From an uncultured Phascolarctobacterium sp. (GTDB lineage Bacteria > Bacillota > Negativicutes > Acidaminococcales > Acidaminococcaceae): a DNA stretch of 64,000 nt. This document shows, piece by piece, positions 9,066 to 62,956 of this stretch. Below the pieces are notes generated by a model. That model was not told the origin of the DNA. It ran no database searches and saw nothing but the letters and a program-made list of their open reading frames with translations. Position numbers and translations under genes: made by a program. Where the stretch lies: the NCBI GenBank assembly GCA_900547415.1, contig URGS01000004.1:26389-90388 (forward strand), given 5' to 3'. Position 1 is the stretch's first letter. Every line of letters starts with the position of its first letter.

Positions 9066-9106
9066 CTTGTTTTTATTTTTATTATTATATAAGGAGTGAT
9101 TTTCTG

Positions 9107-13134: not shown

Positions 13135-13144
13135 GAGGTAGACG

Positions 13145-13777
13145 ATGGAATATTTAGTAGTTTGTTTAATGTTTATCGTCTTTTTACAGACACGTTTTAT
13201 GGAGCTGCGCAGAGCAACCCTGTGCCTAAGTGTACAATCTGCTATTATTGCTGTAGCTTGCCTAGTAGTAGGTATGAGCCACGGCGGTGGTCTCCATGGA
13301 TTTTTGCCAGGTATTCTGACCATTGCTGTTAAGGTTATTTTTATTCCTTATGCTATTTTAAAGGTGGTAAATGAGCTGCGTGACGAGCGTGAGATTGCTA
13401 CGGATATTAATGTAAACTATTCTACTGCTGTAGCTGCTGCCTCTTTAGGTCTTAGCTATATGGTAATAGATGGTATTCTGCCCAATGCCGCAGAGGGACG
13501 TGACATTGTGGCCAGCTCTATGTTTATGATTATGACAGGCCTGACTCTGATGGTTATGCGTAGTCGTGCAATTATGCAGATGATTGGGCTGATTACCATG
13601 GAAAACGGTATCTATCTTTTAGGTCTTATTATGACCGAAGGTTTGCCGCTGATTATTGAGCTTGGTATTTTTTTAGACGTGCTTATTGCCGTTGTTATTC
13701 TTGTTATTTTGACCACGCGCCTGCGTCTGTCCTTTAAGACTACGGACACTAACGTGTTGGATAAGCTGAAGGGGTAA
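13145..13777 (+). CDS. hyfE: Hydrogenase-4 component E-like (NuoK-like membrane subunit)
   Basis: 210 aa, 6-7 TM small membrane subunit in hyf gene order. Confidence 0.75.
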   Translation: MEYLVVCLMFIVFLQTRFMELRRATLCLSVQSAIIAVACLVVGMSHGGGLHGFLPGILTIAVKVIFIPYAILKVVNELRDEREIATDINVNYSTAVAAASLGLSYMVIDGILPNAAEGRDIVASSMFMIMTGLTLMVMRSRAIMQMIGLITMENGIYLLGLIMTEGLPLIIELGIFLDVLIAVVILVILTTRLRLSFKTTDTNVLDKLKG

Positions 13778-13782
13778 AAAGT

Positions 13783-15258: not shown

Positions 15259-15263
15259 GAAAA

Positions 15264-16766: not shown

Positions 16767-16778
16767 GAGGTTGACAAG

Positions 16779-17501
16779 ATGCTGAAAATGTTGGAGGCGA
16801 TTTTAGCTGGTAAAATCGCAACAGAAACTGTTAGTACTGACGGACACAAGCGTATGCGTGGTCAGCTGAATGTCACTGGTAGCTGTGATAACTGCGGTTT
16901 TTGTGCTGCAGCTTGTCCTGTACAGGCTCTGTCTATTGATAATGGCAAGCCCGTTATAGACTACAGCAGATGTATTTTTTGTGGACACTGTGTGGAGGCT
17001 TGTGCGAAAAATTGTCTGCATCATACATCTAAAGAGGCTTTGCCTGAACTTTTGGCAGAAACTCAGGCTGAGGTAAGCAGAACCATTACTGCTAAGCTCG
17101 GTAGAAGTCTGCATGTGCGTCATCTGGATGCAGGCAGCTGTAATGCCTGTGACTTTGAAATGGGTGCAACAAGTAATCCTATATATGATTTGCATCGCTT
17201 TGGTATTGCCTTTGTTGCATCACCGCGTCATGCAGATATGATTATGGTAACTGGTGTCGTAACACGCAATTTGGAGCAAGCCTTAAAAATGACATATGCA
17301 GCAATGCCTGAGCCTAAGCTGGTTATGGCTTGTGGCGCTTGTGCGGCAGGTGGTAATACATATGGCTCTACCTATGCTATTGTAGGTAAGGTAAGTGACG
17401 TGGTGCCTGTGGATATTATGGTACCAGGATGCCCGCCTAGACCTAGTGCTATGATTATTGCATTATGCGCTGCTGCGGATATGCTTAAAGAAAGAATGTA
17501 A
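16779..17501 (+). CDS. Fusion of 2x[4Fe-4S] ferredoxin domain (HyfH/HycF-like) with [NiFe] hydrogenase small subunit (HyfI/HycG, NuoB-like)
   Basis: 240 aa; N-terminal CDNCGFCAAACP and CIFCGHCVEACA motifs; C-terminal NuoB-like domain with GSCNACDFE...CGACAAGG...PGCPPRP proximal cluster cysteines. Confidence 0.85.
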   Translation: MLKMLEAILAGKIATETVSTDGHKRMRGQLNVTGSCDNCGFCAAACPVQALSIDNGKPVIDYSRCIFCGHCVEACAKNCLHHTSKEALPELLAETQAEVSRTITAKLGRSLHVRHLDAGSCNACDFEMGATSNPIYDLHRFGIAFVASPRHADMIMVTGVVTRNLEQALKMTYAAMPEPKLVMACGACAAGGNTYGSTYAIVGKVSDVVPVDIMVPGCPPRPSAMIIALCAAADMLKERM

Positions 17502-18500: not shown

Positions 18501-19727
18501 TTATTTAAGCAGGCTACTAATTTCAGGTAATGGCTCAACAGTACGCTTTAAAATGCCATTCATATAGGCAATGGCTATACCATAATTGGTAATAGGTATG
18601 TTTTGCTGAACTGCACTGCTGTAGCGATGCTGTATTTCACGCTCATTTAACATGCAGGCGCCGCAGTGGATAATGAGCTTATAGCTGCCTAAATCTGCAG
18701 GAAATTCTGTGCCGCTGGTAAATTCAAAAATAGGCTCTGACTTAGTGTAGCTGCGAATCCAGGCGGGAAGCTTTACTGTTCCAATATCACCGCATTGACG
18801 GTGGTGTGTGCAGCCTTCACTAATAAGGATTTTATCTCCGTTTGTGATATTGTCCAAGTGACGTACGCCATGAACAGCATCATAAAGGTTACCTTTATAG
18901 CGTGCCATTAGGATTGAAAAGGATGTCAAGGGTATGTCTGGTGATAGCATTTTATTAACCTTGCCAAAAACTTGACTATCTGTAATAACAAGGCGCGGGG
19001 GAGAGCAGAGCTTGCCTAGTGCATCCTGAAGCTCTGTTTCTCTAGTTACGATTGCAATAGCACCCTTATCAATAATATTTCGTAGTATCTGTTGTTGTGG
19101 CAGAATAAGGCGTCCCTTAGGTGCAGCACTGTCTATGGGAGTAACCATTACTACAACATCTCCAGGGACAAGAATATCGTTTACTAAAGGATTTTCTTTA
19201 TTCTTGGGGGCAAGAGCCGCAATGGCCTCCTTAAGCTCATGAATATTAGTATTATTTGCTGCACTGATAAAAAAGCACTTATTAGTAAGCTTTAGGGCAG
19301 ACGCTGTCAAAAGTGCCTGCTCCATTTCTTCTAGCAGCTCCTTTTTGTTAAATACTAATAGGGAAGGAATTTTCTTGCTTTGGATATGCTGCCATAGTTG
19401 AATATCTTCAGCACACAGTCCTGATTTGCTGTCTACTACAAGGAGTGCAATATCTGTTTTATTTAGAACCTGGTAGGCCTTGCTTACACGAAGCTGACCT
19501 AATTCACCTTCGTCATCAATGCCGGGAGTATCAATCATCATTACAGGTCCTAAGGGTAAGAGCTCCATGGCTTTATGGACTGGGTCAGTAGTAGTTCCCT
19601 TGCAGTCACTCACAATCGCAAGGCTTTGACTGGCCAGTGCGTTTATCAGGCTGGATTTGCCTGCATTGCGACGGCCAAAGATGCCTATATGGATGCGTTC
19701 TCCTGATGGGGTGGAGTTAAGGCTCAT
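18501..19727 (-). CDS. hydF: [FeFe]-hydrogenase maturation GTPase HydF
   Basis: Start placed at ATG 19727 (MSLNSTPSGERIHIGIFGRRNAGKSSLINAL) preceded by AAGGAGG; GTPase motifs; C-terminal FeS ligands EGCTHH and HCGAC. Confidence 0.85.
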   Translation of the reverse strand: MSLNSTPSGERIHIGIFGRRNAGKSSLINALASQSLAIVSDCKGTTTDPVHKAMELLPLGPVMMIDTPGIDDEGELGQLRVSKAYQVLNKTDIALLVVDSKSGLCAEDIQLWQHIQSKKIPSLLVFNKKELLEEMEQALLTASALKLTNKCFFISAANNTNIHELKEAIAALAPKNKENPLVNDILVPGDVVVMVTPIDSAAPKGRLILPQQQILRNIIDKGAIAIVTRETELQDALGKLCSPPRLVITDSQVFGKVNKMLSPDIPLTSFSILMARYKGNLYDAVHGVRHLDNITNGDKILISEGCTHHRQCGDIGTVKLPAWIRSYTKSEPIFEFTSGTEFPADLGSYKLIIHCGACMLNEREIQHRYSSAVQQNIPITNYGIAIAYMNGILKRTVEPLPEISSLLK

Positions 19728-19793
19728 TATATAAATAACCTCCTTAAATAATTTGGCCAAAAAAAGCACTGCCCTAGAGCAGTGCTTTTGAAA

Positions 19794-53879: not shown

Positions 53880-55160
53880 ATGCATACTATTTTTGATATA
53901 GTCATGATACCTTTGCAGCTTCTGATTATATTCTTTACACTGTATTATTTCTTTGTTTCCTGGTTTGGCCTTTTTGGCAAGAAAAAGGAAGTAAAAATTT
54001 ATAATGAAAGCAAGACCTTTGCTCTTATTGCCTGTGCTCATAATGAGCAGGCCGTAATTGCTCAGCTTGTTGATAACCTGCGTCGTTTGAACTACAATGA
54101 TGCTCTTTATGATATTTTTGTAGTAGCTGACAACTGTGACGATAATACAGCTCAGGTGGCAAGAGAAGCAGGTGCCCTTGTTCATGAACGCTTTAGTGAC
54201 GAAGGCAAAGGCAAGGGATTTGCCATGGCGTGGATGTTTGAACGTCTTTTCAAAATGGAGCGCAAATATGATGCTGTTTGTATTTTTGACGCAGATAATT
54301 TGGTGCATCCTGATTTCCTGCGTGAGATGAACAGTCGTCTTTGTAATGGTGAGCGAATCATCCAAGGCTATATTGACGCCAAGAATCCTACTGATACCTG
54401 GGTAAGTGGTGTTTTTGCAATTTCCTTCTGGATCGTTAACCATGTTTGGAGCTTAGCTAAATACAATATGGGTTTAAGCTGCTGCTTAGGCGGTACTGGT
54501 ATGTGCTTTGATACTGAGGTCTTAAAGCGTTATGGTTGGAGAGCTACCTGCCTTACTGAGGATATGGAGTTCACCATTCAGGCTATGATGGAAAATATCC
54601 CTACAACCTGGGCACATGATGCAATCATTTACGATGAAAAGCCTCTGACCTTTATGCAGTCTTGGAATCAGCGTAAACGTTGGTCTCAAGGTCACTTTGA
54701 TGTGGCGGACCGTTATCTTATTCCCATGATTAAAAAGGCCATTAAGGAGCGTAATATTGTAATGCTGGATTGCTCTGTCAATCTGATTCAGCCGTATTTC
54801 CTGATGGTTTCTACATTCTTTATTTTCTGCAGCTACATTTATAATTTTGTGCCTTTTTACACTAACATTATCTACAAGGTTATTCCTTTGGAGGTTTGGA
54901 CTCTTGTTGGTGTAGGCCAGTACATTTTCCCTGTAGCAGTGTTGTGGAAAATTCGTGCTTCCTTTAAGTCCTGGCTTTATCTGCTTTTGTATCCGATCTT
55001 TATTTACAGCTGGGTTCCTATTACAGCATTAGGCTGGTGGCACCGCAAGGAGCATGACTGGTGTCATACATTGCATACTCGTGGAATTAGCTTTGATGAT
55101 GTTGTAATTCCGGAAGATGCAGTTAATGATGGACCTAAAGAGGTTATATTCAAAAAATAA
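53880..55160 (+). CDS. Membrane-anchored family 2 glycosyltransferase
   Basis: Start ATG 53880 6 nt after GAAGGAG; GT-A fold with DXD-like (VVADNCDD, FDADN) and multiple C-terminal TM helices. Confidence 0.75.
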   Translation: MHTIFDIVMIPLQLLIIFFTLYYFFVSWFGLFGKKKEVKIYNESKTFALIACAHNEQAVIAQLVDNLRRLNYNDALYDIFVVADNCDDNTAQVAREAGALVHERFSDEGKGKGFAMAWMFERLFKMERKYDAVCIFDADNLVHPDFLREMNSRLCNGERIIQGYIDAKNPTDTWVSGVFAISFWIVNHVWSLAKYNMGLSCCLGGTGMCFDTEVLKRYGWRATCLTEDMEFTIQAMMENIPTTWAHDAIIYDEKPLTFMQSWNQRKRWSQGHFDVADRYLIPMIKKAIKERNIVMLDCSVNLIQPYFLMVSTFFIFCSYIYNFVPFYTNIIYKVIPLEVWTLVGVGQYIFPVAVLWKIRASFKSWLYLLLYPIFIYSWVPITALGWWHRKEHDWCHTLHTRGISFDDVVIPEDAVNDGPKEVIFKK

Positions 55161-55172
55161 TTAATTATTATT

Positions 55173-55206
55173 AAGAGACTGTTCTAATTAGAGCAGTCTC
55201 TTTTCG
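55173..55206 (+). terminator. Intrinsic terminator after GT2 gene
   Basis: AAGAGACTGTTC-taatta-GAGCAGTCTCTT followed by TTCG/T-rich. Confidence 0.7.
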
Positions 55207-55407
55207 TATATATGGGGTTAAACACTTTATTTTGAAGCTGAAATATGCTAAAATTATTATGTATAATTGGTTTTATTTTTAAGTATTTTGACCATAATAA
55301 AAGCTAGAGCTATAGCCACAATTGGACAAAAACTTTGAGTAAACTTAATATTGCTTATAAGGTTAAAGTATTCTTCAGAGAATTTTATAATAATAGGAGG
55401 TTTGATT

Positions 55408-56208
55408 ATGCGTAAAATAGCGATTATTGGTGGTACTGGTTTTGGTAACCCCGAGGTTTTAGGTGTAAAATTTGAAAAACAGATTGTGCATACTCCCTAC
55501 GGTGATGCTCTTTGCCATATAGGTGAAATGGCTGGCAATCAGGTTGTATTTATTACTCGTCATGGTTTAGGCCATAAGATTGCACCTCACAAGGTAAACT
55601 TCCGTGCTAACATTTGGGCATTGAAAAGTTTAGGAACAGAGGAAATCTTTACTACTACTGCAGTAGGTTCTCTAAATCCTGAAATGACAGCTGGTCATTT
55701 TGTTGTATGCGATAATGTTCTGGATTTTACTAAAAGCCGCATTAATACCTTCTATGATACTCCGGAGCGTGGTGTTGTACATGCAGATTTTACTAATCCC
55801 TACTGTCCTGTTATGCGTCAGCGTGTAATTAACTGTCTGAAGCAAACAGATATTCCTCTCCACGAGCATGGCGTGTATGTTGCTACTGAAGGCCCTCGTT
55901 TTGAGTCTGCTGCGGAAATTAAGGCCTACAGATTAATGGGTGGCGATTTGGTTGGTATGACCGGTATGCCTGAAGCTATCTTGGCTAGAGAAGCAGAAAT
56001 GTGCTACTGCACTTGCTCCATTGTAACTAATATGGCTGCTGGTATTTCCAAGACACCGCTTTCTCATGCAGAGGTAGTTGAAGCAATGACTAAAAGCATC
56101 AGCAATATGGAAAAACTGATTGCTGCTTTCATTACCAATAACGAAGAAATTGAAGCAGGCTGTGGCTGTCATTCTGCTCTGAAGGAGTTTGGTGGCTTTA
56201 AGCTCTAA
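55408..56208 (+). CDS. mtnP: S-methyl-5'-thioadenosine (or 5'-methylthioinosine) phosphorylase, PNP/MTAP family
   Basis: ATG 55408 after TAGGAGG; N-terminal IAIIGGTGFG P-binding motif of MTAP/PNP family. Confidence 0.8.
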   Translation: MRKIAIIGGTGFGNPEVLGVKFEKQIVHTPYGDALCHIGEMAGNQVVFITRHGLGHKIAPHKVNFRANIWALKSLGTEEIFTTTAVGSLNPEMTAGHFVVCDNVLDFTKSRINTFYDTPERGVVHADFTNPYCPVMRQRVINCLKQTDIPLHEHGVYVATEGPRFESAAEIKAYRLMGGDLVGMTGMPEAILAREAEMCYCTCSIVTNMAAGISKTPLSHAEVVEAMTKSISNMEKLIAAFITNNEEIEAGCGCHSALKEFGGFKL

Positions 56209-56325
56209 TCACTGGGGTAAAAATAGTTCTTTAATATAGTAAGCACAAGGCTTGGTGGGACTTTACGTATCACATATGAGATGTAGGCAGTTATCATCCT
56301 CGTGCTTATTTAAGGAAGTGAAACA

Positions 56326-57378
56326 ATGATAGAAACAATGCGTTGGGAAAAGGGAAAGCTGTTGCTGTTGGACCAGACTAAGCTTCCTCAAAGTACTGAA
56401 ATAATTGTTTGTGAGGATTATAAACGTGTCAAAACAGCTATTGAACGTTTAGAGGTCAGAGGTGCTCCTGCTATTGGTGCAGCTGCTGCCTATGCTATGG
56501 TTTTAGGTGCGAAGGAGGCTGGCAACAGACCCGATTTTATCGGTACTTTGTCTAAGATAAAGGATAATTTGATTTCCGCAAGACCTACGGCTGTAAATCT
56601 TTCCTGGGCCGCTGAAGAGGTTTTTTCAGCAGCTAAAAGCTTATACGAGTCTGACTATGCCCCTTTTCAGATATACGATGAACTGGAGATGGTAGCTGAT
56701 TATATCTATCAAACAGATATAATGAATAACCAGCGTATGGGTAAATTTGGTGCAGCTGTATTGCCGGAGAAGGCTGTTGTACTGACTCATTGCAACGCTG
56801 GTGCCTTAGCTACATGTGGTTGGGGTACAGCTCTCGGAGTATTGCGTGAGGCTTATCAGCAGGGAAAGCTGGAAATGGTGTATGCTGATGAAACCAGACC
56901 CTTGCTGCAGGGTGCAAGACTGACAGCCTATGAGCTGTGTGAGGATAATATTCCTGTCACACTTATTACCGACAATATGGCAGCATGGACCATGAAAACA
57001 AAGGGTATTAATGCTGTAGTTGTTGGTGCAGACAGAATTGCTTCTAATGGTGATACTGCGAACAAGATTGGTACCTATGGTGTTGCTTTAGCAGCCAAGG
57101 CTCATGGCATACCATTTTATGTTGCTGCACCTGTCAGCACCTTTGATTTTACTATAGAAGATGGTTCAGAAATTCCTATTGAGGAACGCAAGGGTGAGGA
57201 AATTAAGCGTTTCCGTAGCGAGGTAACAGCACCTGAAAAGGCGCTAACCTTTAATCCAGCCTTTGATGTTACACCTGCCAAATTAATTACAGGCATTATT
57301 ACGGAGTATGGCGTTATAACTGCGCCCTATATAGAAAATATTAAGAAATTGCAAGAGCAATACAAGGAGGAACAATAA
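56326..57378 (+). CDS. mtnA: S-methyl-5-thioribose-1-phosphate isomerase (eIF-2B alpha/beta/delta-like)
   Basis: 350 aa; MtnA/eIF2B family pattern (WEKGKLLLLDQTKLP..., GADRIASNGDTANKIGT). Confidence 0.85.
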   Translation: MIETMRWEKGKLLLLDQTKLPQSTEIIVCEDYKRVKTAIERLEVRGAPAIGAAAAYAMVLGAKEAGNRPDFIGTLSKIKDNLISARPTAVNLSWAAEEVFSAAKSLYESDYAPFQIYDELEMVADYIYQTDIMNNQRMGKFGAAVLPEKAVVLTHCNAGALATCGWGTALGVLREAYQQGKLEMVYADETRPLLQGARLTAYELCEDNIPVTLITDNMAAWTMKTKGINAVVVGADRIASNGDTANKIGTYGVALAAKAHGIPFYVAAPVSTFDFTIEDGSEIPIEERKGEEIKRFRSEVTAPEKALTFNPAFDVTPAKLITGIITEYGVITAPYIENIKKLQEQYKEEQ

Positions 57379-57381
57379 TTC

Positions 57382-58626
57382 ATGGAAAGTATGATTAAAG
57401 ACATTAACTTAGCACCTCTCGGTCATCAAAGAATTGCATGGGCTAAGGAATATATGCCTTTGTTGAATATTCTTAACGAAAAATATAGTGAGACTAAGCC
57501 CTTTGCTGGCTTGAATATGATTGTTACCATTCATCTGGAGGCAAAAACTGCTTACCTGGCACAGGTCCTGAAAAATGCAGGTGCTAATGTTGTTGTAACC
57601 GGCAGTAATCCTCTTTCCACTCAGGATGAAATTGCAGCGGCTTTAGTTGACAGTGGTATTACCGTGTTTGCAACTCATGGCTGCACTAATGAAGAATACG
57701 ATATGTATCTGCGTGAAGCTTTGAAGGTTGAACCTGATCTGATTATCGATGATGGTGGCGATCTGGTAAACATGCTCCATGGTGAACGTCGTGATTTGAT
57801 TGCAAAGCTGATTGGCGGTAGTGAGGAAACCACTACTGGTGTACATCGTTTGAAAGCTCTCGAAGCTGCTGAGCATTTGGCATTTCCGATGATTGCTGTT
57901 AATGATGCGTACTGCAAATATCTGTTTGATAACCGTTATGGTACTGGTCAATCCTCTCTGGATGGCATTATTCGTACTACTAATATGTCCATTGCTGGCA
58001 GAACCGTTGTTGTTGCAGGTTATGGCTGGTGTGGTAAGGGTGTAGCTATGCGTGCCAAAGGTATGGGTGCAAACGTTATTGTAACCGAAGTTGATCCTAT
58101 TAAGGGTGTAGAGGCTGTGTTTGACGGTTTCCGCGTAATGCCTATGCAGGATGCTGCTAAAGAAGGCGACATCTTCATTACTGTAACTGGCTGCAATGAT
58201 GTAATCACCAAACCTCATATGGAAGTTATGAAAAATGGTGCTGTAATGTGCAACGCTGGCCACTTCGACGTTGAGGTTAATAAGAACCACCTGGAAGAAC
58301 TGTCTGTCAAGGAGCCCTATGAAGTACGCAAAAACATTGTGACCTATACCATGGCTGACGGCCGTAAGCTGAACCTTTTGGGTGAGGGTCGTCTGGTAAA
58401 CCTGGCTTGTGGTGATGGCCATCCTATCGAGGTTATGGATCTTTCCTTTGCAATGCAGTTCCTGGCAATGAAATACTTGCTTGACCATAAGGGAACTATG
58501 GAAAATAAAGTATATGTTCTTCCTGAAGAGCTGAATACCGAAGTTGCGGCTCTGAAGCTGGCTGCTATGGGTGCTGGTATTGATACCCTCACAGAAGAAC
58601 AAAAGGCTTATTTGGCTGCAGAATAA
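57382..58626 (+). CDS. ahcY: Adenosylhomocysteinase-family hydrolase (short ~415-aa form; SAH or S-inosylhomocysteine hydrolase)
   Basis: 414 aa; NAD-binding GYGWCGKGVAMRAKGMGANVIVTE and catalytic domain pattern of AhcY. Confidence 0.88.
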   Translation: MESMIKDINLAPLGHQRIAWAKEYMPLLNILNEKYSETKPFAGLNMIVTIHLEAKTAYLAQVLKNAGANVVVTGSNPLSTQDEIAAALVDSGITVFATHGCTNEEYDMYLREALKVEPDLIIDDGGDLVNMLHGERRDLIAKLIGGSEETTTGVHRLKALEAAEHLAFPMIAVNDAYCKYLFDNRYGTGQSSLDGIIRTTNMSIAGRTVVVAGYGWCGKGVAMRAKGMGANVIVTEVDPIKGVEAVFDGFRVMPMQDAAKEGDIFITVTGCNDVITKPHMEVMKNGAVMCNAGHFDVEVNKNHLEELSVKEPYEVRKNIVTYTMADGRKLNLLGEGRLVNLACGDGHPIEVMDLSFAMQFLAMKYLLDHKGTMENKVYVLPEELNTEVAALKLAAMGAGIDTLTEEQKAYLAAE

Positions 58627-58707
58627 TTCAATATTTTAGGGACTGTCTTAAAGGCAGGCCCTAAGTATGTTTGTTATATTCTTTATAGATTGTGAGCGAG
58701 GTATGCA

Positions 58708-59370
58708 ATGAAGCTGGAAGAAATCTTAAAGAATGATATAGCTGCAATGGGCAAGCAGTTAATTGCTAAGAATCTTGTGGCTGGTTCATGGGGCAACATC
58801 AGCTGCTTAGTTGATGATGCATCCCTTGTTATCACTCCTTCTGGAATGGGCTATGAAAAGCAGAGGGCAGAGGACATTGTTCTAATAGATTTTGTGGGTA
58901 ATGTCCTTGAAGGCAAGCACTTCCCATCATCTGAGAGTAAGCTTCACACCGCCATCTATCGAGCATGTCCTGAGGCAAAGGCAATAATTCATACCCATAG
59001 TATTTATTCTAGTGCTTTAGCTGCTATGCGTAAACCTATTCCTGCAATAATTGAGGATATTATTCAAATTATTGGCGGACGTGTTAATTGTGCAGAATAT
59101 GCTCTGCCTGGTACAGAAGAGCTGGCAGATAACGCTGTTGCAGCTATGCAGGGACGTAAGGCTGTGCTTTTGGCTAATCATGGTGCTGTTTGTTGGGGCA
59201 CAAGCCTGAATGATGCTTTAATAGTTGCTGAAATACTTGAAAAGGCTGCTCAGATAGCAGTAATCTGTCAGGCGACAGGTGGTGCAGTAGAGCTGTCTCA
59301 GGAGGATGCTGATATAATGCACAGCTTTTACCAGGAGCATTACTCTAAGAGACAAAGTGGTAAGGAATGA
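58708..59370 (+). CDS. Class II aldolase/adducin-family protein: methylthioribulose-1-phosphate aldolase (Ald2-like) or dehydratase (MtnB-like)
   Basis: 220 aa; metal-binding HTHS and later His (IIHTHSIYSS, ANHGAVCWG) typical of FucA/MtnB/Ald2 fold. Confidence 0.75.
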   Translation: MKLEEILKNDIAAMGKQLIAKNLVAGSWGNISCLVDDASLVITPSGMGYEKQRAEDIVLIDFVGNVLEGKHFPSSESKLHTAIYRACPEAKAIIHTHSIYSSALAAMRKPIPAIIEDIIQIIGGRVNCAEYALPGTEELADNAVAAMQGRKAVLLANHGAVCWGTSLNDALIVAEILEKAAQIAVICQATGGAVELSQEDADIMHSFYQEHYSKRQSGKE

Positions 59371-59406
59371 AATTTCTATAAATAAGCACGAAAGGGTGGT
59401 GTTAAT

Positions 59407-60690
59407 TTGAGTAAGGTATTAATTAAAAATATTGAATTATTAAACACTCCTAATGGTGAAATGTACTGCATTGCAGTTCAGGATAAGAAAATTGTTGCTA
59501 TCGGTAAGGAGGCTCCTGCCGATTTCGTAGCAGACGAAGTTGTAGATGGTAAGGGTAAGCTGGCTACTGCCGGTATGGTAAATACTCATGGTCATGTTTC
59601 TATGACACTTCTACGCAGCTATGCAGATGACATGGCTCTTATGGATTGGCTGGAAAACAAGATTTGGCCTATCGAAGCAAAAATGGATGCTGAGGATATT
59701 TATTGGGGTGCAATGCTTGGCATTGTGGAAATGCTTAAGGGTGGCACTACTGCCTTTGCGGATATGTATGGTCCTTATATGGAGCGTGTAGCTGAGGCTG
59801 TTGCAGAAACCGGTATGCGTGCCAACCTTTGTCGAGGTCTGATTGGATTAGCACCTGATAAAGATGTAAAGCTGGCTGAAAACGATGCTTTGGCTGAGAG
59901 CTGGCAAAACTATGATGAAGGTCGTATTCGTGTAAGCTATGGTCCCCACGCTCCCTATACCTGTCCTTTAGATTATTTGGAGAAGGTTATTGCAGCTGCT
60001 AAAAATCATAATGCTGAGCTGCAAATGCATCTTTGCGAAACCAAGTTTGAGGTAGAAAGCTACAAAAAAGAGCATGGTATTACTCCCATCGAAATGATGG
60101 ACAAACTGGGTATGTTTGATTTAGTTACCATTGCAGCTCACTGCGTACACCTGACCGATAATGATATGGATATTATGGCTGCAAAGAATGTGCGTGTAGC
60201 CCATAATCCGCAAAGTAATTTGAAGCTGGCAAGTGGTATTGCCCCTGTCGAGAAAATGCTGGCTAAGGGTATTGTTGTTGGTTTAGGTACCGATGGTGCT
60301 TCCAGTAACAACAATCTTGATATGTTAGAGGAATGTCGTGCAGCAGCTATGCTCCATAAAGCTACCAGCTTTGATCCGTTAGTAGTTCCTGCGGCAAAAG
60401 CTTGGGATATGGCTACTGTTGATGGTGCAAAGGTATTAGGCTTTAAGGACTGCGGTAAGCTTGAAGCCGGTCAGCAGGCAGACATTGTTCTGTGGGATAT
60501 GCATAAGCCTTACTGGTATCCCCGCCACAACAAGCTGTCCCTCTTAGTATATGCAGCAAGTGCCTACGATGCAGATACTGTATTTGTAGCAGGCCGTAAG
60601 GTTGTTGAGCAGGGCAGACTTGTAACCTTTGATGAAGAAAAAATTTACGCAGAAGCAGAGGCTTGTGCTAAAAGGTTATTAACTAAATAA
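59407..60690 (+). CDS. mtaD: 5'-methylthioadenosine/S-adenosylhomocysteine (and likely 5'-deoxyadenosine) deaminase, amidohydrolase family
   Basis: 427 aa; TTG start after GGTGGTG; metal-binding HGH (MVNTHGHVSMTLLR) and MtaD/DadD-like overall pattern. Confidence 0.8.
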   Translation: MSKVLIKNIELLNTPNGEMYCIAVQDKKIVAIGKEAPADFVADEVVDGKGKLATAGMVNTHGHVSMTLLRSYADDMALMDWLENKIWPIEAKMDAEDIYWGAMLGIVEMLKGGTTAFADMYGPYMERVAEAVAETGMRANLCRGLIGLAPDKDVKLAENDALAESWQNYDEGRIRVSYGPHAPYTCPLDYLEKVIAAAKNHNAELQMHLCETKFEVESYKKEHGITPIEMMDKLGMFDLVTIAAHCVHLTDNDMDIMAAKNVRVAHNPQSNLKLASGIAPVEKMLAKGIVVGLGTDGASSNNNLDMLEECRAAAMLHKATSFDPLVVPAAKAWDMATVDGAKVLGFKDCGKLEAGQQADIVLWDMHKPYWYPRHNKLSLLVYAASAYDADTVFVAGRKVVEQGRLVTFDEEKIYAEAEACAKRLLTK

Positions 60691-60737
60691 CTATGCAATG
60701 CCATTAAAAGCGAGAAAATGACATTGGAGGAGAAAAT

Positions 60738-61580
60738 ATGGCAAAAATTATTGAAAAAGCAAATATTGCTGAAGCAGTGTATGAATTTGTTGTAGATGCA
60801 CCGTTGGTTGCTCATAAATGTCGCCCTGGTCAATTCGTTATTATCCGTACTGACGAATTCAGCGAGCGTGTACCCCTGACTATTGCTGATTTCGACCGTG
60901 AAAAGGGATATATAACTCTTATTGTACAAGCAGTAGGTAATTCTACCAGACATTTATGTGATACCTTTGAGATTGGTGATGATATTCTGGATGTAGTTGG
61001 TCCTTTAGGTCAGCCTTCTGAAATGGGTAATTTTGGTACTGTTGTTGTTGTGGGCGGCGGTATTGGTGTAGCTCCTGTTTATCCTATTGCACGTGCTTAT
61101 CATGAGTTGGGTAACAAGGTAATTTCCATTATCGGTGCTCGTAATAAAGATTTGATTATTTGGCAGGATAAAATGGCTGCAATCAGTGACGAGGTTATTA
61201 TTACTACTGACGATGGCAGTGCTGGCCACAAAGGCTTTGTAACTGATCCTTTGAAGGAAATGCTGGAAAAAGGTGAAAAGATTGACCTTGTATTGGCCAT
61301 TGGTCCTGTAATCATGATGAAAAACGTTGCAGCTGTAACTAAGCCCTTTGGCGTAAAAACAACTGCTAGTCTGAATACTATTATGGTAGATGGTACTGGT
61401 ATGTGTGGCGGCTGTCGTGTTAATGTTGGTGGCGAAAACAAATTTGCCTGCGTAGATGGTCCTGAATTCGACGCTCATCAGGTAGATTTTGCTAATCTGC
61501 TCATGCGTCAGCAGATGTATAAGAACCAGGAGTCTCTGGAATATAGCTGCGGAGGTCATTGCAAATGCGTGGAGGAATGA
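60738..61580 (+). CDS. nfnA: NADH-dependent reduced ferredoxin:NADP+ oxidoreductase subunit A (PyrK-like FAD/[2Fe-2S] subunit; SudB-like)
   Basis: 280 aa; FAD/NAD-binding fold and C-terminal cysteine cluster GMCGGCRV...FACVDGP. Confidence 0.85.
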   Translation: MAKIIEKANIAEAVYEFVVDAPLVAHKCRPGQFVIIRTDEFSERVPLTIADFDREKGYITLIVQAVGNSTRHLCDTFEIGDDILDVVGPLGQPSEMGNFGTVVVVGGGIGVAPVYPIARAYHELGNKVISIIGARNKDLIIWQDKMAAISDEVIITTDDGSAGHKGFVTDPLKEMLEKGEKIDLVLAIGPVIMMKNVAAVTKPFGVKTTASLNTIMVDGTGMCGGCRVNVGGENKFACVDGPEFDAHQVDFANLLMRQQMYKNQESLEYSCGGHCKCVEE

Positions 61581-61588
61581 GAAATGCA

Positions 61589-62956
61589 ATGCCGGAACAA
61601 CCGGCAAATGTTCGTAATAAAAACTTTGAAGAAGTAGCCTTAGGCTATACTAAAGAAATGGCAGTTGACGAAGCACAGCGTTGTTTGAATTGCCCTAAAC
61701 CACGCTGCGTAAGCGGTTGTCCTGTAAATGTAGAAATACCCGCATTTATTCAGGCAGTTGCTCACGAGGACTTTGCGGAAGCAATTAAAATTCTGAAACG
61801 CAAAAACAGTCTGCCTGCTGTTTGCGGACGTGTTTGCCCTCAGGAAAACCAATGCGAAAGCAAATGCGTACTTGGCATTAAGGGCGAATCCGTTGCGATT
61901 GGCCGCTTGGAACGTTTTGTTGCTGATTATGCACGCGAAAATGGTATTGATGTTACTAAGGCTGACGATGTAGTTCCCAATGGCAAAAAGGTCGCTATTG
62001 TAGGCAGTGGTCCTTCTGGACTGACCTGTGCAGGCGATTTAGCCAAACTCGGTTATGATGTAACCCTGTTTGAAGCACTTCATGCAGCTGGTGGCGTTCT
62101 GATGTATGGTATTCCTCAGTTCCGTCTGCCTAAAGAGATTGTGCAGCATGAAATTGCTGCTCTCAAGGAGCTTGGAGTTAAAATTGAGGTTAACTCTGTA
62201 ATCGGTCGTACCTTTACCATTAAGGAATTGATGGAAGAAGAAGGCTTTGATGCAGTTTATGTTGGTACTGGTGCTGGTCTGCCGCATTTTATGCATATTG
62301 ATGGCGAAAACCTGAACGGTGTATACTCTGCCAACGAATTTCTGACTCGTGTAAACCTGATGAAGGCCTACGAATTCCCCAATTTAGCAACTCCTGTATA
62401 CGTTGGTAAGAAGGCAGCTATTGTAGGTGCTGGCAACGTAGCTATGGACGCAGCTCGTACTGCTAAACGTCTTGGTGCAGAGCATGTATATATTGTTTAT
62501 CGTCGTGGTGAGGACGAAATGCCTGCTCGTAAGGAAGAAATTGGCCACGCTAAGGAAGAGGGAATCGAGCTTCGACTTTTGAACAACCCTGTAAGCATTA
62601 AAGGTGATGAAAAAGGCTGGGTAAATGGTCTGGAATGCGTAAAAATGGAGCTGGGTGAAGCAGATGCCAGTGGTCGCCGTAGTCCTGTAGCTATTGAGGG
62701 CAGTGAATACATTCTTGATGTAGATATGGTTGTAATGGCTATTGGTCAAGGTCCCAATCCTTTGATTAAGCAAACTACTCCTAATTTAGAGGTTAATAAA
62801 CGTGGTAACATCGTAGCTGATGAAGCAGGTGCAACCTCCATTCCAGGCGTATTTGCCGGTGGTGACATCGTAACTGGTGCTGCAACCGTAATCTCTGCAA
62901 TGGGTGCAGGCAAGCGTGCAGCTGTTGCCATTGATGAGTATTTAAAAAATAAATAG
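61589..62956 (+). CDS. nfnB: NADH-dependent reduced ferredoxin:NADP+ oxidoreductase subunit B (GltD-like, 2x[4Fe-4S] + FAD + NAD(P))
   Basis: Start ATG 61589 12 nt after GGAGGA (earlier in-frame ATGs overlap nfnA); N-terminal Cys motifs CLNCPKPRC...CPV, two Rossmann GxGxxG motifs (VGSGPSGL, VGAGNVAMD). Confidence 0.85.
   Translation: MPEQPANVRNKNFEEVALGYTKEMAVDEAQRCLNCPKPRCVSGCPVNVEIPAFIQAVAHEDFAEAIKILKRKNSLPAVCGRVCPQENQCESKCVLGIKGESVAIGRLERFVADYARENGIDVTKADDVVPNGKKVAIVGSGPSGLTCAGDLAKLGYDVTLFEALHAAGGVLMYGIPQFRLPKEIVQHEIAALKELGVKIEVNSVIGRTFTIKELMEEEGFDAVYVGTGAGLPHFMHIDGENLNGVYSANEFLTRVNLMKAYEFPNLATPVYVGKKAAIVGAGNVAMDAARTAKRLGAEHVYIVYRRGEDEMPARKEEIGHAKEEGIELRLLNNPVSIKGDEKGWVNGLECVKMELGEADASGRRSPVAIEGSEYILDVDMVVMAIGQGPNPLIKQTTPNLEVNKRGNIVADEAGATSIPGVFAGGDIVTGAATVISAMGAGKRAAVAIDEYLKNK

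What the first reader, a model, noticed from the sequence alone, without database searches (positions are those of the whole stretch)
55408..60690. Integrated SAM by-product salvage cluster: mtnP-mtnA-ahcY-class II aldolase-mtaD (DHAP-shunt-like, covering MTA, 5'-deoxyadenosine and SAH)
MTA phosphorylase + MTR-1-P isomerase + a class II (FucA-like) aldolase is the gene set of the anaerobic 'DHAP shunt' described in Rhodospirillum and some E. coli. That pathway turns MTA and 5'-deoxyadenosine into DHAP plus (methylthio)acetaldehyde or acetaldehyde instead of regenerating methionine. None of mtnC/D/W/X/K is present. The cluster additionally carries an MtaD/DadD-type deaminase, which makes 5'-methylthioinosine, 5'-deoxyinosine and S-inosylhomocysteine. 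It also carries a short AhcY homologue that could be an S-inosylhomocysteine hydrolase as in methanogens. MtnP could equally be an MTI phosphorylase. Seeing all three radical-SAM/methyltransferase by-product routes in one locus is unusual. It is also metabolically notable for an organism encoding radical SAM enzymes, including the one at 39597.
Basis: partly seen in the sequence, partly recalled or inferred. Interest (0 to 1): 0.55.

Follow-up and report, generated by a model that had tools for sequence, protein, structure and literature searches.

The report
Hypoxanthine-route SAM by-product salvage operon
A gut Phascolarctobacterium carries a five-gene operon, shared with many strictly anaerobic Firmicutes, that most likely deaminates the three waste products of S-adenosylmethionine and then recycles them as hypoxanthine, homocysteine and DHAP; the parts are known but this bacterial combination is not described in the papers I could search.

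Summary
Five + strand genes lie at 55408-60690: an MTAP-family phosphorylase, MtnA, a 414-aa AhcY, a class II aldolase and an MtaD/DadD-type deaminase. A strong terminator lies upstream.

- **Phosphorylase:** it has the base-binding segment VTNMAAGISKTPLSHAEV, as in 6-oxopurine PNPs and P. aeruginosa MTI phosphorylase. MTA phosphorylases have TDYD there.
- **AhcY:** it carries HLEAK, the HxExK fingerprint of S-inosylhomocysteine-preferring hydrolases. Its best solved relative is the M. maripaludis enzyme.
- **Deaminase:** it keeps the Tm0936 catalytic and ribose-binding residues.
- **Conservation:** the order phosphorylase-MtnA-[AhcY]-aldolase-deaminase recurs in Acidaminococcaceae, Veillonellales, Desulfofundulus, Desulfoscipio, Syntrophaceticus, Desulfonispora and Desulfitobacterium with unrelated flanks. 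11 of 11 sampled distant aldolase homologues sit beside MtnA and the deaminase.
- **Aldolase:** it is not MtnB, and it is not an orthologue of E. coli Ald2 or B. thuringiensis DrdA. It belongs to a third FucA-like lineage with an acidic residue in place of Tyr113'.

Verdict: a deaminase-first variant of the DHAP shunt coupled to an archaeal-type SIH hydrolase. It is a new variant of a known kind, of moderate interest, and untested biochemically.

The parts
55173..55202 (+). Intrinsic terminator-like hairpin (13-bp stem, 4-nt loop, then UUUU). It ends the upstream glycosyltransferase gene and marks the 5' boundary of the cluster.
   Evidence: -18.6 kcal/mol, z -5.86, and 0 of 200 shuffles fold as well. 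The sequence is shown.
55238..55267 (+). Candidate sigma-70-type promoter (CTGAAA, 18 nt, TATAAT) in the 247-nt gap before the first gene. Low confidence.
   Evidence: 10 of 12 matches. The scan found 20 sites where about 15 are expected by chance, so this is only a lead.
55408..56208 (+). MTAP-family nucleoside phosphorylase with a PNP/MTIP-type base-binding segment. Predicted 6-oxopurine (MTI, 5'-deoxyinosine, possibly inosine) phosphorylase. AGGAGG ribosome-binding site at 55396-55401.
   Evidence: passes both TIGR01694 and NF006599. VTNMAAGISKTPLSHAEV aligns with Cellulomonas, M. tuberculosis and XapA PNPs and with PaMTIP, against TDYD in MTAPs. The N-terminal RHGxxH is MTAP-like. The motif is conserved in all 54 + 9 cluster-linked homologues.
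56326..57378 (+). S-methyl-5-thioribose-1-phosphate isomerase (MtnA). Also expected to act on 5-deoxyribose-1-phosphate.
   Evidence: TIGR00512 429.5 bits (cut-off 279) and NF004326 439 (cut-off 271). The ribose-1,5-bisphosphate isomerase model gives only 180 (cut-off 314). It is 42% identical to the E. coli DHAP-shunt MtnA.
57382..58626 (+). Archaeal-type adenosylhomocysteinase homologue with the HxExK fingerprint. Predicted S-inosyl-L-homocysteine-preferring hydrolase. It starts 3 nt after the mtnA stop codon.
   Evidence: the best solved relative is 7r3a, the M. maripaludis S-inosyl-L-homocysteine hydrolase (513 bits, residues 3-412). The HLEAK motif is at residues 51-55. Searches give the experimental link between this motif and substrate preference.
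58708..59370 (+). FucA-like class II (metal-dependent) aldolase of an uncurated lineage. Predicted 5-(methylthio)/5-deoxy-ribulose-1-phosphate aldolase giving DHAP plus an aldehyde.
   Evidence: It keeps the Asn29, Thr43, Ser71/72, Glu73 and His92/94/155 equivalents (N30, T43, S74/75, E76, H95/97/158). Tyr113' is replaced by E116-D117. It passes no NCBIfam cut-off. It lies next to mtnA and the deaminase in 11 of 11 sampled distant homologues.
59407..60690 (+). MtaD/DadD-type amidohydrolase. Predicted deaminase for MTA, 5'-deoxyadenosine and SAH.
   Evidence: Best solved relatives: 4f0r MTA/SAH deaminase (294 bits), P. aeruginosa 4gbd/4dyk (270) and T. maritima Tm0936 (259). The equivalents of Tm0936 H55, H57, W75, E84, R136, H200, E203, H228 and D279 are conserved, and R148 is replaced by K.

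Best explanation
The five genes form one operon that clears and recycles the three adenosyl by-products of SAM-dependent enzymes through their deaminated (hypoxanthine) forms. The by-products are MTA, 5'-deoxyadenosine and SAH.

1. **Deamination (inferred from family and active-site conservation).** The MtaD/DadD-type deaminase converts MTA, 5'-deoxyadenosine and SAH into 5'-methylthioinosine, 5'-deoxyinosine and S-inosylhomocysteine.
2. **Phosphorolysis (inferred from the Asn-type base-binding motif).** The MTAP-family phosphorylase cleaves methylthioinosine and 5'-deoxyinosine. The products are hypoxanthine plus 5-methylthioribose-1-P or 5-deoxyribose-1-P. It may also cleave inosine.
3. **Isomerisation (family membership shown by curated HMM cut-offs).** MtnA converts these sugar phosphates into the ribulose-1-phosphates.
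4. **Aldol cleavage (inferred from conserved catalytic residues and conserved gene context).** The class II aldolase cleaves them to DHAP plus 2-(methylthio)acetaldehyde or acetaldehyde, as in the DHAP shunt and the DrdA pathway.
5. **Hydrolysis (inferred from the HxExK fingerprint, which has been tested experimentally in other species).** The AhcY homologue hydrolyses S-inosylhomocysteine to homocysteine and inosine.

The net result relieves product inhibition of methyltransferases and radical SAM enzymes without oxygen. It also returns hypoxanthine, homocysteine and a triose phosphate to central metabolism.
For: - **Family assignments and operon-like layout:**
- **Phosphorylase:** the C-terminal 96 residues match 6-oxopurine PNPs and PaMTIP ahead of any MTAP. 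The motif VTN[MYFE]AAGI..L[ST]H.EV is present in every cluster-linked homologue, including ones only 43-52% identical.
- **AhcY:** HxExK is present in all 61 + 5 cluster-linked copies. The best solved relative is an SIH hydrolase. Koeppl 2024 showed that HxExK enzymes prefer SIH and HxTxE(Q) enzymes prefer SAH.
- **Deaminase:** the Tm0936 residues are conserved.
- **Gene context:** the order phosphorylase-MtnA-[AhcY]-aldolase-deaminase recurs with unrelated flanks in Clostridia, Desulfotomaculia-type taxa and Negativicutes. The deaminase is present in 11 of 11 sampled distant loci and the phosphorylase in 10 of 11.
- **Aldolase:** it is closest to FucA and DrdA and far from MtnB, AraD and RhaD.
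These cover phosphorylase-isomerase-aldolase clusters and DrdA chemistry (PMC6079011), the DHAP shunt (PMC10986504), M. jannaschii MtiP acting on MTI and 5'-deoxyinosine and the P. aeruginosa MTA-to-MTI route (PMC6302742), and DadD/SIHH in M. jannaschii and T. maritima.
Against: - No enzyme of this operon has been assayed, so every substrate assignment is a prediction.
- The phosphorylase passes the MTAP equivalog cut-off as well as the MTIP one. It also keeps the His that in PNPs contacts the 5'-OH, where PaMTIP has Met, so inosine could be its main substrate.
- The deaminase passes none of the curated equivalog cut-offs: NF005557 gives 360 bits (cut-off 522) and NF012037 gives 325 (cut-off 779).
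- The aldolase passes no curated cut-off. It also replaces Tyr113', the second catalytic residue of FucA, with an acidic residue. Its wider signature clade includes proteins fused to unrelated sugar-metabolism domains, so the signature is not specific to this pathway.
- HxExK enzymes still turn over some SAH.
- Whether the genome also has Pfs/LuxS or other methionine-salvage genes is unknown.
- Within Acidaminococcaceae the whole neighbourhood is syntenic, so those roughly 60 loci are not independent evidence.
Confidence: 0.68

Rival explanations
1. This is a classical adenine-route DHAP shunt plus a classical methyl cycle. The phosphorylase acts directly on MTA and 5'-deoxyadenosine and releases adenine. 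AhcY hydrolyses SAH. The amidohydrolase only deaminates the adenosine (or adenine nucleoside) produced, which pulls the unfavourable SAH hydrolysis forward.
For: The phosphorylase passes the TIGR01694 MTAP cut-off. HxExK enzymes retain low SAH activity. Tm0936-type deaminases are described as MTA/SAH deaminases, and T. maritima also encodes an MTA/SAH nucleosidase homologue, so deaminase and adenine routes can coexist.
Against: In every cluster-linked phosphorylase the base-binding segment is of the Asn/PNP type, with no Asp-type motif. HxExK is invariant in the linked AhcY. The deaminase is kept even in the 4-gene operons that have no ahcY, so it cannot serve only to pull SAH hydrolysis.
Confidence: 0.14
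2. The operon is mainly a purine nucleoside (adenosine/inosine) catabolic route. The steps would be deaminase, then a PNP-like phosphorylase, then isomerisation of ribose-1-P to ribulose-1-P, then ribulose-1-P aldolase giving DHAP plus glycolaldehyde. SAM by-products would be only side substrates.
For: The phosphorylase keeps both the Asn and the L-S-H segment typical of inosine/guanosine PNPs. The aldolase scores 141-173 bits against the haloarchaeal ribulose-1-phosphate aldolase model NF053831. The reference list seen includes a paper on ribose metabolism catalysed by methionine-salvage enzymes.
Against: The isomerase passes the MtnA equivalog far above its cut-off. Overall the phosphorylase is MTAP-family: 285 bits against 144 for the PNP models. 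NF053831 stays far below its cut-off of 300, and E. coli FucA and DrdA score as high or higher against it. An SAH/SIH hydrolase embedded in the operon ties it to SAM metabolism.
Confidence: 0.1
3. The aldolase-like protein is not an aldolase. It would be a dehydratase (MtnB-like) or an epimerase, feeding a non-canonical, oxygen-independent methionine salvage route rather than a DHAP shunt.
For: Tyr113' of FucA is replaced by E116-[D/E]117 in the whole clade. From my own recollection, not checked here, MtnB (APIP Glu139') and AraD (Asp120') also have an acidic residue at about this place. The subfamily model named 'L-ribulose-5-phosphate 4-epimerase' (NF005123) is the first or second hit.
Against: The MtnB models match only the N-terminal half and stay below cut-off, and DrdA behaves the same way against them. 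APIP gives 54 bits and AraD 117, against 205-221 for DrdA and S. pneumoniae FucA. The FucA Glu73 equivalent and the phosphate-binding residues are intact. No mtnC/D/W/X-like gene is linked in any of the loci examined. The hosts belong to genera known to me as strict anaerobes, where the dioxygenase step of the canonical pathway cannot work.
Confidence: 0.06
4. The genes are neighbours by descent only. They share a syntenic block with no functional coupling.
For: Within Acidaminococcaceae the flanking genes psd-pssA-GT2 and nfnAB-like are syntenic as well.
Against: The same order is kept with at least four different sets of flanks in other classes. The intergenic distances are short (3-117 nt).
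Confidence: 0.02

Closest known systems
DHAP shunt (Rhodospirillum rubrum: MtnP-MtnA-Ald2; extraintestinal E. coli: Pfs + MtnK-MtnA-Ald2)
   Same: The logic is the same: phosphorylase (or nucleosidase plus kinase), then MtnA isomerase, then a class II aldolase giving DHAP plus (methylthio)acetaldehyde or acetaldehyde. It handles both MTA and 5'-deoxyadenosine and needs no oxygen (PMC10986504).
   Different: Here a deaminase is an integral operon member, and the phosphorylase has a 6-oxopurine-type base pocket, so hypoxanthine rather than adenine is the expected base. An SIH/SAH hydrolase is embedded in the operon. The aldolase is only 31% identical to E. coli Ald2, which is itself a FucA paralogue (57% identical to FucA).
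5-deoxyribose disposal pathway DrdK-DrdI-DrdA of Bacillus thuringiensis, and the phosphorylase-isomerase-aldolase clusters noted in Clostridium phytofermentans (Beaudoin 2018, PMC6079011)
   Same: An isomerase and a FucA-like aldolase are clustered with a kinase or a phosphorylase. The catalytic Glu76 and the three metal-binding His are conserved.
   Different: DrdA passes NF005302 (375 bits, cut-off 264), while the window protein scores 176. The two are 37% identical. The Tyr113' equivalent, kept in DrdA, is Asp/Glu here. That paper mentions a deaminase only when citing the M. jannaschii work, not as part of any cluster.
Methanocaldococcus jannaschii route: DadD deaminase, MtiP (MTI/5'-deoxyinosine phosphorylase), MtnA-type isomerase, and S-inosylhomocysteine hydrolase
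   Same: Deamination comes first, followed by phosphorolysis of the inosine-type nucleosides and hydrolysis of SIH. The AhcY has the same HxExK fingerprint and a short archaeal-type architecture.
   Different: The host here is bacterial, and the Acidaminococcaceae copies come from gut and rumen samples. All genes sit in one operon. The pathway ends with an aldolase, giving a DHAP-shunt-type exit, whereas the archaeal proposal leads to 6-deoxy-5-ketofructose-1-phosphate.
Pseudomonas aeruginosa MTA deaminase followed by MTI phosphorylase (PA3004, PDB 3OZB)
   Same: MTA is deaminated before phosphorolysis. The phosphorylase belongs to the MTAP family and has Asn in the base-binding motif (VVNPAAG against VTNMAAG).
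   Different: PaMTIP has Met where the window enzyme, like the PNPs, has His (LSH). No aldolase or AhcY linkage was seen in the papers read for P. aeruginosa. The P. aeruginosa SAHH prefers SAH.
Thermotoga maritima Tm0936 (MTA/SAH deaminase) plus TmSAHH
   Same: A bacterial deaminase paired with an HxExK, SIH-preferring hydrolase.
   Different: That case is described as a thermophile-specific, archaeal-type exception. Here the pair is embedded in a DHAP-shunt-like operon and occurs in gut and rumen Negativicutes and other Firmicutes.

Membership tests
S-methyl-5'-thioinosine phosphorylase (NCBIfam NF006599) / MTAP family (TIGR01694) | Whole-protein score above the curated cut-off | tested here: met
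   NF006599 269.2 bits (cut-off 223) and TIGR01694 284.7 (cut-off 274.85). Both pass, so the HMMs alone do not decide between MTA and MTI.
S-methyl-5'-thioinosine phosphorylase | Asn rather than Asp at the base-contacting position. This is the position of Asp220 of human MTAP and Asn243 of human PNP (those residue roles are from my own knowledge). | tested here: met
   VTN MAAG aligns with PaMTIP VVN PAAG and PNP VTN LAAG, while MTAPs have VTD YD. The Asn is conserved in all 63 cluster-linked homologues.
S-methyl-5'-thioinosine phosphorylase | Hydrophobic 5'-alkylthio pocket, and measured preference for MTI over MTA and over inosine | tested here: inconclusive
   The N-terminal RHGxxH is MTAP-like. 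However, the L-S-H segment is PNP-like where PaMTIP has T-M. Activity cannot be measured with these tools.
MtnA, S-methyl-5-thioribose-1-phosphate isomerase (TIGR00512) | Equivalog score above cut-off, and clearly better than the ribose-1,5-bisphosphate isomerase and eIF-2B models | tested here: met
   429.5 bits (cut-off 279). TIGR00511 gives 180.6 (cut-off 314).
S-inosyl-L-homocysteine hydrolase (SIH-preferring subgroup of AdoHcyase) | HxExK nucleobase-binding fingerprint instead of HxTxE/Q (Koeppl 2024) | tested here: met
   HLEAK at residues 51-55. The fingerprint rule is given.
S-inosyl-L-homocysteine hydrolase | Archaeal-type architecture: no roughly 40-aa insertion in the catalytic domain, and a short C-terminus | tested here: met
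   The protein is 414 aa and aligns end to end (residues 3-412) with the M. maripaludis, P. furiosus and T. maritima enzymes. SAHHs of about 460-500 aa, which I take to be the insertion-bearing kind, align only from about residue 140 onward.
S-inosyl-L-homocysteine hydrolase | Higher turnover with SIH than with SAH | not testable with these tools
   This needs an enzyme assay.
MtaD/DadD (MTA / SAH / 5'-deoxyadenosine deaminase) | Metal ligands, catalytic Glu and His, and nucleoside-binding Trp and Glu of Tm0936 (the residue roles are from my own knowledge of Hermann 2007) | tested here: met
   the alignment shows the H55, H57, W75, E84, R136, H200, E203, H228 and D279 equivalents conserved, with R148 replaced by K.
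MtaD/DadD | Score above a curated equivalog cut-off | tested here: not met
   NF005557 (5'-deoxyadenosine deaminase) 360 bits against a cut-off of 522. NF012037 (MTA/SAH deaminase) 325 against 779. The best model, NF004701, gives 478 against 609. So I file it as a relative of this group, not as a member of any curated equivalog.
DrdA / Ald2 (5-deoxyribulose-1-P / methylthioribulose-1-P aldolase) | Orthology with a characterised enzyme (NF005302 for DrdA; NF005984 for E. coli Ald2) | tested here: not met
   DrdA passes NF005302 with 375 bits (cut-off 264), and E. coli Ald2 passes NF005984 with 364 (cut-off 264). The window protein gives 176 and 131. Identity is 37% to DrdA and 31% to E. coli Ald2.
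DrdA / Ald2 | Class II aldolase catalytic set: three metal-binding His, the general-base Glu (FucA Glu73 / DrdA Glu76) and the phosphate-binding Asn, Thr, Ser, Ser | tested here: met
   N30, T43, S74, (S75), E76, H95, H97 and H158 are invariant or nearly invariant in the clade.
DrdA / Ald2 | Tyr113' equivalent (the second catalytic residue of FucA, from the neighbouring subunit), which is kept in E. coli Ald2, DrdA and S. pneumoniae FucA | tested here: not met
   It is replaced by E116-[D/E]117 with a conserved Q120.
DrdA / Ald2 | Gene clustered with mtnA and a phosphorylase or kinase | tested here: met
MtnB (methylthioribulose-1-P dehydratase) | TIGR03328 / NF006672 score above cut-off over the full length | tested here: not met
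   90.5 bits (cut-off 137), covering only residues 12-106. Against the clade profile, APIP (4m6r) gives 54 bits, N-terminal part only.
DHAP shunt (as a pathway) | Conversion of MTA or 5'-deoxyadenosine to DHAP plus an aldehyde in vivo | not testable with these tools
   This needs labelled-substrate metabolomics.

The most novel reading that the evidence does not exclude
The operon defines a widespread but uncharacterised 'inosine branch' of SAM by-product recycling in strictly anaerobic Firmicutes.

- One deaminase funnels MTA, 5'-deoxyadenosine and SAH into hypoxanthine nucleosides.
- One hybrid MTAP/PNP phosphorylase then cleaves MTI and 5'-deoxyinosine, and also the inosine released from SIH.
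- A third, independently recruited lineage of FucA-like aldolase, with an acidic residue in place of Tyr113', cleaves the resulting ribulose-1-phosphates. These are the 5-deoxy and 5-methylthio forms, and possibly unmodified ribulose-1-P.

If so, the ribose of all three by-products ends in DHAP. The SIH route would then be a mainstream bacterial strategy rather than an archaeal or thermophile curiosity.
Probability: 0.3. Interest if true: 0.62.

Novelty: new variant of a known kind. Interest (0 to 1): 0.5.

Why it matters
SAH, MTA and 5'-deoxyadenosine inhibit the enzymes that make them, so every cell needs a way to remove them. How strict anaerobes that cannot run the oxygen-dependent methionine salvage pathway do this is only partly known.

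If the prediction holds, four things follow.
- **A third entry form of the DHAP shunt.** Deaminase plus MTI phosphorylase would join MtnP and MtnN+MtnK.
- **Repeated recruitment of the aldolase step.** The step would have been recruited at least three times from FucA-like ancestors.
- **Better annotation.** Simple sequence fingerprints (VTNxAAG in the phosphorylase, HxExK in AhcY) could improve annotation of these genes. In the records seen here the names were 'adenosylhomocysteinase' for the AhcY and 'L-fuculose-phosphate aldolase' or 'class II aldolase/adducin family protein' for the aldolase.

It also predicts that these gut bacteria release or reuse hypoxanthine and methylthio-acetaldehyde-derived products, which could matter for purine and sulfur exchange in the gut.

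Tried and rejected
- **Riboswitch or leader RNA.** Rfam found nothing at gathering thresholds on the whole window. At E<=1 on 55100-60800 it found only a spurious snoRNA hit.
- **Intergenic hairpins at 56209-56325 and 58627-58707.** They fold better than shuffles (z about -3). They are absent from all related loci except the identical contig L001, so I do not count them as parts of the system.
- **Gene fusions linking the aldolase to MtnA or the phosphorylase.** The long proteins among the 150 best representatives are tandem aldolase duplications or fusions to an MFS transporter, a 2-hydroxyacid dehydrogenase, an FGGY kinase or a DAO oxidoreductase. None is fused to MtnA.
- **Bootstrapped neighbour-joining tree of the aldolases.** It timed out. 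I used the identity matrix, HMM cut-offs and profile scores instead.
- **Primary papers not held.** These were Guan 2011 and 2012, North 2020 and Miller 2014. Residue roles in MTAP/PNP, Tm0936, AraD and APIP therefore rest on my own knowledge and on the alignments.
- **Whether the genome has pfs, luxS or mtnK/B/C/D/W/X elsewhere.** This could not be tested.
- **Source names for the window proteins.** None were recorded, except 'adenosylhomocysteinase' for close AhcY relatives.
- **FucA function in fucose catabolism.** Rejected. No fucI, fucK or fucP is nearby in any locus, and the neighbours are always mtnA and the deaminase.

Full report
**1. What is there.**

Five ORFs lie head to tail on the + strand:

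| Coordinates | Length | Product |
|---|---|---|
| 55408-56208 | 266 aa | MTAP-family phosphorylase |
| 56326-57378 | 350 aa | MtnA |
| 57382-58626 | 414 aa | AhcY homologue |
| 58708-59370 | 220 aa | class II aldolase |
| 59407-60690 | 427 aa, TTG start | MtaD/DadD-type amidohydrolase |

The gaps between them are 117, 3, 81 and 36 nt. A ribosome-binding site precedes each start. The upstream glycosyltransferase gene ends at 55160. It is followed by a 13-bp hairpin and a U-run at 55173-55202 (-18.6 kcal/mol, z -5.9). No terminator-like structure follows the last gene, so read-through into the NfnAB-like pair at 60738-62956 is possible.

Base composition is uniform across the window, so nothing suggests a recent insertion. 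No known riboswitch or leader RNA was detected.

**2. Family assignments.**

Curated HMMs give these results.
- The first protein passes both the MTA phosphorylase model (TIGR01694, 284.7 bits, cut-off 274.85) and the MTI phosphorylase model (NF006599, 269.2, cut-off 223).
- The second is MtnA (TIGR00512, 429.5, cut-off 279). It is not a ribose-1,5-bisphosphate isomerase (180.6, cut-off 314).
- The third is an adenosylhomocysteinase (NF004005, 654.5).
- The fourth is an Aldolase_II protein that passes no equivalog cut-off. Its best hit is NF005302 at 176 bits (cut-off 264). The MtnB model TIGR03328 gives 90.5 (cut-off 137) and matches the N-terminal half only.
- The fifth belongs to the TRZ/ATZ-MtaD-DadD group but is below every equivalog cut-off.

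The rest of the window was annotated with Pfam. It holds housekeeping genes, an Ech-like hydrogenase cluster, hydF, a DUF512 radical-SAM-like gene, hom/thrB and an NfnAB-like pair. It holds no pfs, luxS, metK or mtnK/B/C/D/W/X.

**3. Which base does the phosphorylase take?**

Full-length comparison with solved structures puts the protein equally near archaeal MTAPs and P. aeruginosa MTI phosphorylase. The C-terminal third, which carries the base-contacting residues, tells a different story.

Searched alone, that third finds Cellulomonas PNP, E. coli XapA and M. tuberculosis PNP first. P. aeruginosa MTI phosphorylase scores level with the M. tuberculosis PNPs. The MTAPs come after these.

The segment reads VTNMAAGISKTPLSHAEV. 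The comparison sequences are:
- Cellulomonas PNP: VTNLAAGISPTPLSHAEV
- PaMTIP: VVNPAAGKSAGIITMAEI
- S. solfataricus MTAPII: VTDYDV-FAEIPVTAEEV

From established knowledge, the Asn/Asp at this place (Asn243 of human PNP, Asp220 of human MTAP) selects 6-oxo versus 6-amino purines. The N-terminal RHGxxH is MTAP-like.

The enzyme is therefore a hybrid: an MTAP scaffold with a PNP-type base site. The Asn motif is present in all 54 Acidaminococcaceae copies and in all 9 distant copies examined. It also keeps the His of the PNP 'LSH' segment, where PaMTIP has Met. Inosine may therefore be a substrate too; this is inference.

**4. Which substrate does AhcY take?**

The best solved relative is the M. 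maripaludis S-inosyl-L-homocysteine hydrolase (7r3a, 513 bits). The next are the P. furiosus and T. maritima enzymes.

Koeppl et al. 2024 tested 18 enzymes. Those with an HxExK motif prefer SIH and those with HxTxE/Q prefer SAH. Structures show that the Glu and Lys of the motif contact N1 and O6 of hypoxanthine. The window protein has HLEAK, and so do all 66 cluster-linked copies. It also has the short archaeal-type architecture (414 aa, aligned end to end).

**5. The deaminase.**

Its best solved relatives are Chromobacterium MTA/SAH deaminase (294 bits), the P. aeruginosa protein 4gbd/4dyk (270) and T. maritima Tm0936 (259). The alignment to Tm0936 shows these residues conserved:
- metal ligands H55, H57, H200 and D279;
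- E203 and H228;
- W75 and E84;
- R136, with K in place of R148.

By my recollection of Hermann 2007, R136 and R148 pair with the homocysteine carboxylate. Keeping a positive pair is compatible with SAH as a substrate.

**6. The aldolase.**

I retrieved E. coli Ald2 through a lambda-red primer sequence in the supplement of PMC10986504, and E. coli FucA from MG1655.

The identity matrix shows the following.
- The cluster-linked aldolases form their own group, 40-68% identical to each other.
- They are 36-44% identical to B. thuringiensis DrdA and S. pneumoniae FucA.
- They are 26-36% identical to E. coli Ald2 and FucA.
- E. coli Ald2 is 57% identical to E. coli FucA, and DrdA is 52% identical to S. 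pneumoniae FucA.

DrdA passes NF005302 and E. coli Ald2 passes NF005984. The present clade passes nothing. So the aldolase step of this pathway type appears to have been recruited several times from FucA-like ancestors, and this is a third lineage.

A profile of the clade scores as follows against solved structures:

| Structure | Bits |
|---|---|
| S. pneumoniae FucA | 221 |
| DrdA | 205 |
| E. coli FucA | 166 |
| AraD | 117 |
| Aquifex putative class 2 aldolase aq_1979 (2irp) | 101 |
| human MtnB (APIP) | 54, N-terminal part only |
| RhaD | 37 |

The metal-binding His residues, the general-base Glu and the phosphate-binding residues are invariant or nearly so. Tyr113' of FucA is kept in Ald2, DrdA and S. 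pneumoniae FucA. In this clade it is replaced by E116-[D/E]117, together with a conserved Q120 and a Trp in the G-x-W-G-N phosphate loop. At least 36 single-domain clusters at 50% identity share this signature. A few signature-bearing proteins are fused to unrelated sugar-metabolism domains, so the signature is not unique to this pathway. I therefore call the protein an aldolase with about 0.7 confidence and keep a dehydratase/epimerase rival.

**7. Conservation of the gene set.**

A scan of species-representative genomes with the aldolase returned 80 loci. A tblastn script showed the full five-gene order in essentially all Phascolarctobacterium, Succiniclasticum and other Acidaminococcaceae contigs long enough to tell. 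The flanks are syntenic there too, so these loci count as one lineage.

Independent evidence came from more distant aldolase homologues, 42-53% identical to the aldolase of the Clostridia locus L081 that was used as query. Their contigs were read.
- **Five-gene form.** Found in Desulfofundulus, Peptococcaceae BRH_c4b, Desulfoscipio geothermicus and a Veillonellales MAG.
- **Four-gene form without ahcY.** Found in Syntrophaceticus, Desulfonispora, Desulfitobacterium, Clostridiaceae BRH_c20a and an uncultured Clostridia MAG. In these it usually sits just after ftsY, and in three of them before ylxM-ffh.
- **One variant (L094).** It has mtnA-aldolase-deaminase followed by a Cys/Met-metabolism PLP enzyme, with no phosphorylase.

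Of the 11 sampled distant loci, 11 have MtnA and the deaminase next to the aldolase, and 10 also have the phosphorylase. The deaminase is thus a core member of this operon type, which argues that deamination is the entry step.

**8. Mechanism proposed.**

The proposed sequence is as follows.
1. The deaminase converts MTA, 5'-deoxyadenosine and SAH to MTI, 5'-deoxyinosine and SIH.
2. The phosphorylase releases hypoxanthine and 5-methylthio- or 5-deoxy-ribose-1-P.
3. MtnA isomerises these sugar phosphates.
4. The aldolase gives DHAP plus methylthioacetaldehyde or acetaldehyde.
5. The AhcY homologue splits SIH into homocysteine and inosine. The same phosphorylase may then cleave the inosine.

What is shown: the genes, their family membership, the fingerprints and the conserved linkage. 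What is inferred: every substrate and the order of the steps.

The hosts belong to anaerobic genera, or were assembled from gut, rumen and rock-porewater samples. This fits an oxygen-independent route.

**9. Comparison with what is known.**

Each step has a precedent:
- the DHAP shunt;
- DrdKIA and phosphorylase-type clusters;
- P. aeruginosa MTA deaminase and MTIP, and M. jannaschii MtiP;
- DadD/SIHH in M. jannaschii and T. maritima.

Full-text searches found no paper that describes the combined operon or an SIH route in non-thermophilic bacteria. [quoted passage not shown] The library lacks most subscription papers, including North 2020, so earlier mention cannot be excluded.

**10. Verdict.**

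Three refinements apply.
- The hypoxanthine route is probably the main route.
- The operon is widespread rather than unusual.
- The aldolase is a new lineage.

This is a new variant of a known kind, with interest 0.5. It is a coherent, testable prediction that broadens a pathway thought to be restricted, but it is built entirely from known enzyme families and rests on sequence evidence only.

Noticed in passing
window 56209-57378; L080 4107-5983: In the closest species-representative contig (L080, UMGS1554) the neighbouring proteins are 96-97% identical to the window's, but MtnA is only 82% identical. The mtnP-mtnA spacer is about 27 nt there instead of 117 nt. The 117-nt spacer folds into a long hairpin (z -3.0) and occurs nowhere else among the fetched loci. 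This suggests a local recombination patch.
   Followed up: partly
window 56142-56208 (C-terminus of the phosphorylase): A C-x-C motif (GCGCH) near the C-terminus is conserved in all cluster-linked phosphorylases. It aligns with the CSCC of the hyperthermophilic S. solfataricus MTAPII. From memory, such C-terminal cysteines form stabilising disulfides in the archaeal enzyme. Its conservation in gut and rumen anaerobes is unexplained.
   Followed up: no
L069-L075 (Succiniclasticum), e.g. L075 2873-7934: In Succiniclasticum about 5 kb is inserted between ahcY and the aldolase. It encodes a 400-aa protein with no family hit, an EamA-type carboxylate/amino-acid transporter, small unknown ORFs and a SAM-dependent methyltransferase.
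   Followed up: partly
L094 4924-9109: A variant cluster, mtnA-aldolase-deaminase followed by a Cys_Met_Meta_PP (cystathionine/methionine gamma-lyase-like) gene. It has no adjacent phosphorylase, and a HAD hydrolase gene lies upstream on the other strand.
   Followed up: no
L081, L086, L087, L089, L092, L093: In Clostridia and Desulfotomaculia-type genomes the operon sits directly after ftsY. In L086, L089 and L092 it lies between ftsY and ylxM-ffh, a very conserved housekeeping neighbourhood. In Negativicutes it sits after psd-pssA-GT2.
   Followed up: no
window 60738-62956: Immediately downstream lies an overlapping pair. One gene has a DHODB Fe-S/NAD-binding product (280 aa) and the other a GltD-like Fer4_20 + Pyr_redox_2 product (465 aa). 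The architecture is NfnAB-like (ferredoxin:NADP oxidoreductase / transhydrogenase). No terminator separates it from the deaminase gene. The pair is syntenic only within Acidaminococcaceae.
   Followed up: partly
window 10259-17501 and 18501-19769 (-): A membrane-bound Ech/Hyf-like [NiFe] hydrogenase / complex-I-related gene cluster (antiporter-like, NuoH-like, fused 30-kDa/49-kDa and 20-kDa subunits). Nearby on the minus strand is a HydF [FeFe]-hydrogenase maturase gene. From general knowledge, HydF works together with the radical SAM enzymes HydE and HydG, which are sources of 5'-deoxyadenosine.
   Followed up: no
It is followed by a corrinoid adenosyltransferase (CobO/BtuR) gene.
   Followed up: no
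proteins P0318-P0321 and many others: Many of the 150 best representative homologues of the aldolase are proteins of 360-510 aa with two Aldolase_II domains in tandem. Others are fused to an MFS transporter, a 2-hydroxyacid dehydrogenase, an FGGY kinase or a DAO oxidoreductase.
   Followed up: partly
window 8061-10075: A BNR_2 (sialidase-like beta-propeller) gene next to a TctC-type tripartite tricarboxylate transporter receptor gene. They lie between the ribF gene and the hydrogenase cluster.
   Followed up: no
L021, L022, L026, L027, L034, L036, L065, L067: Several contigs that carry the Acidaminococcaceae-type cluster with its typical flanks are labelled with unrelated names in their records: Ruminococcus, Duodenibacillus, Bacteroidaceae, Segatella copri, Escherichia coli, Bacteroides or Acholeplasmataceae. 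These are probably mis-binned metagenome contigs.
   Followed up: no
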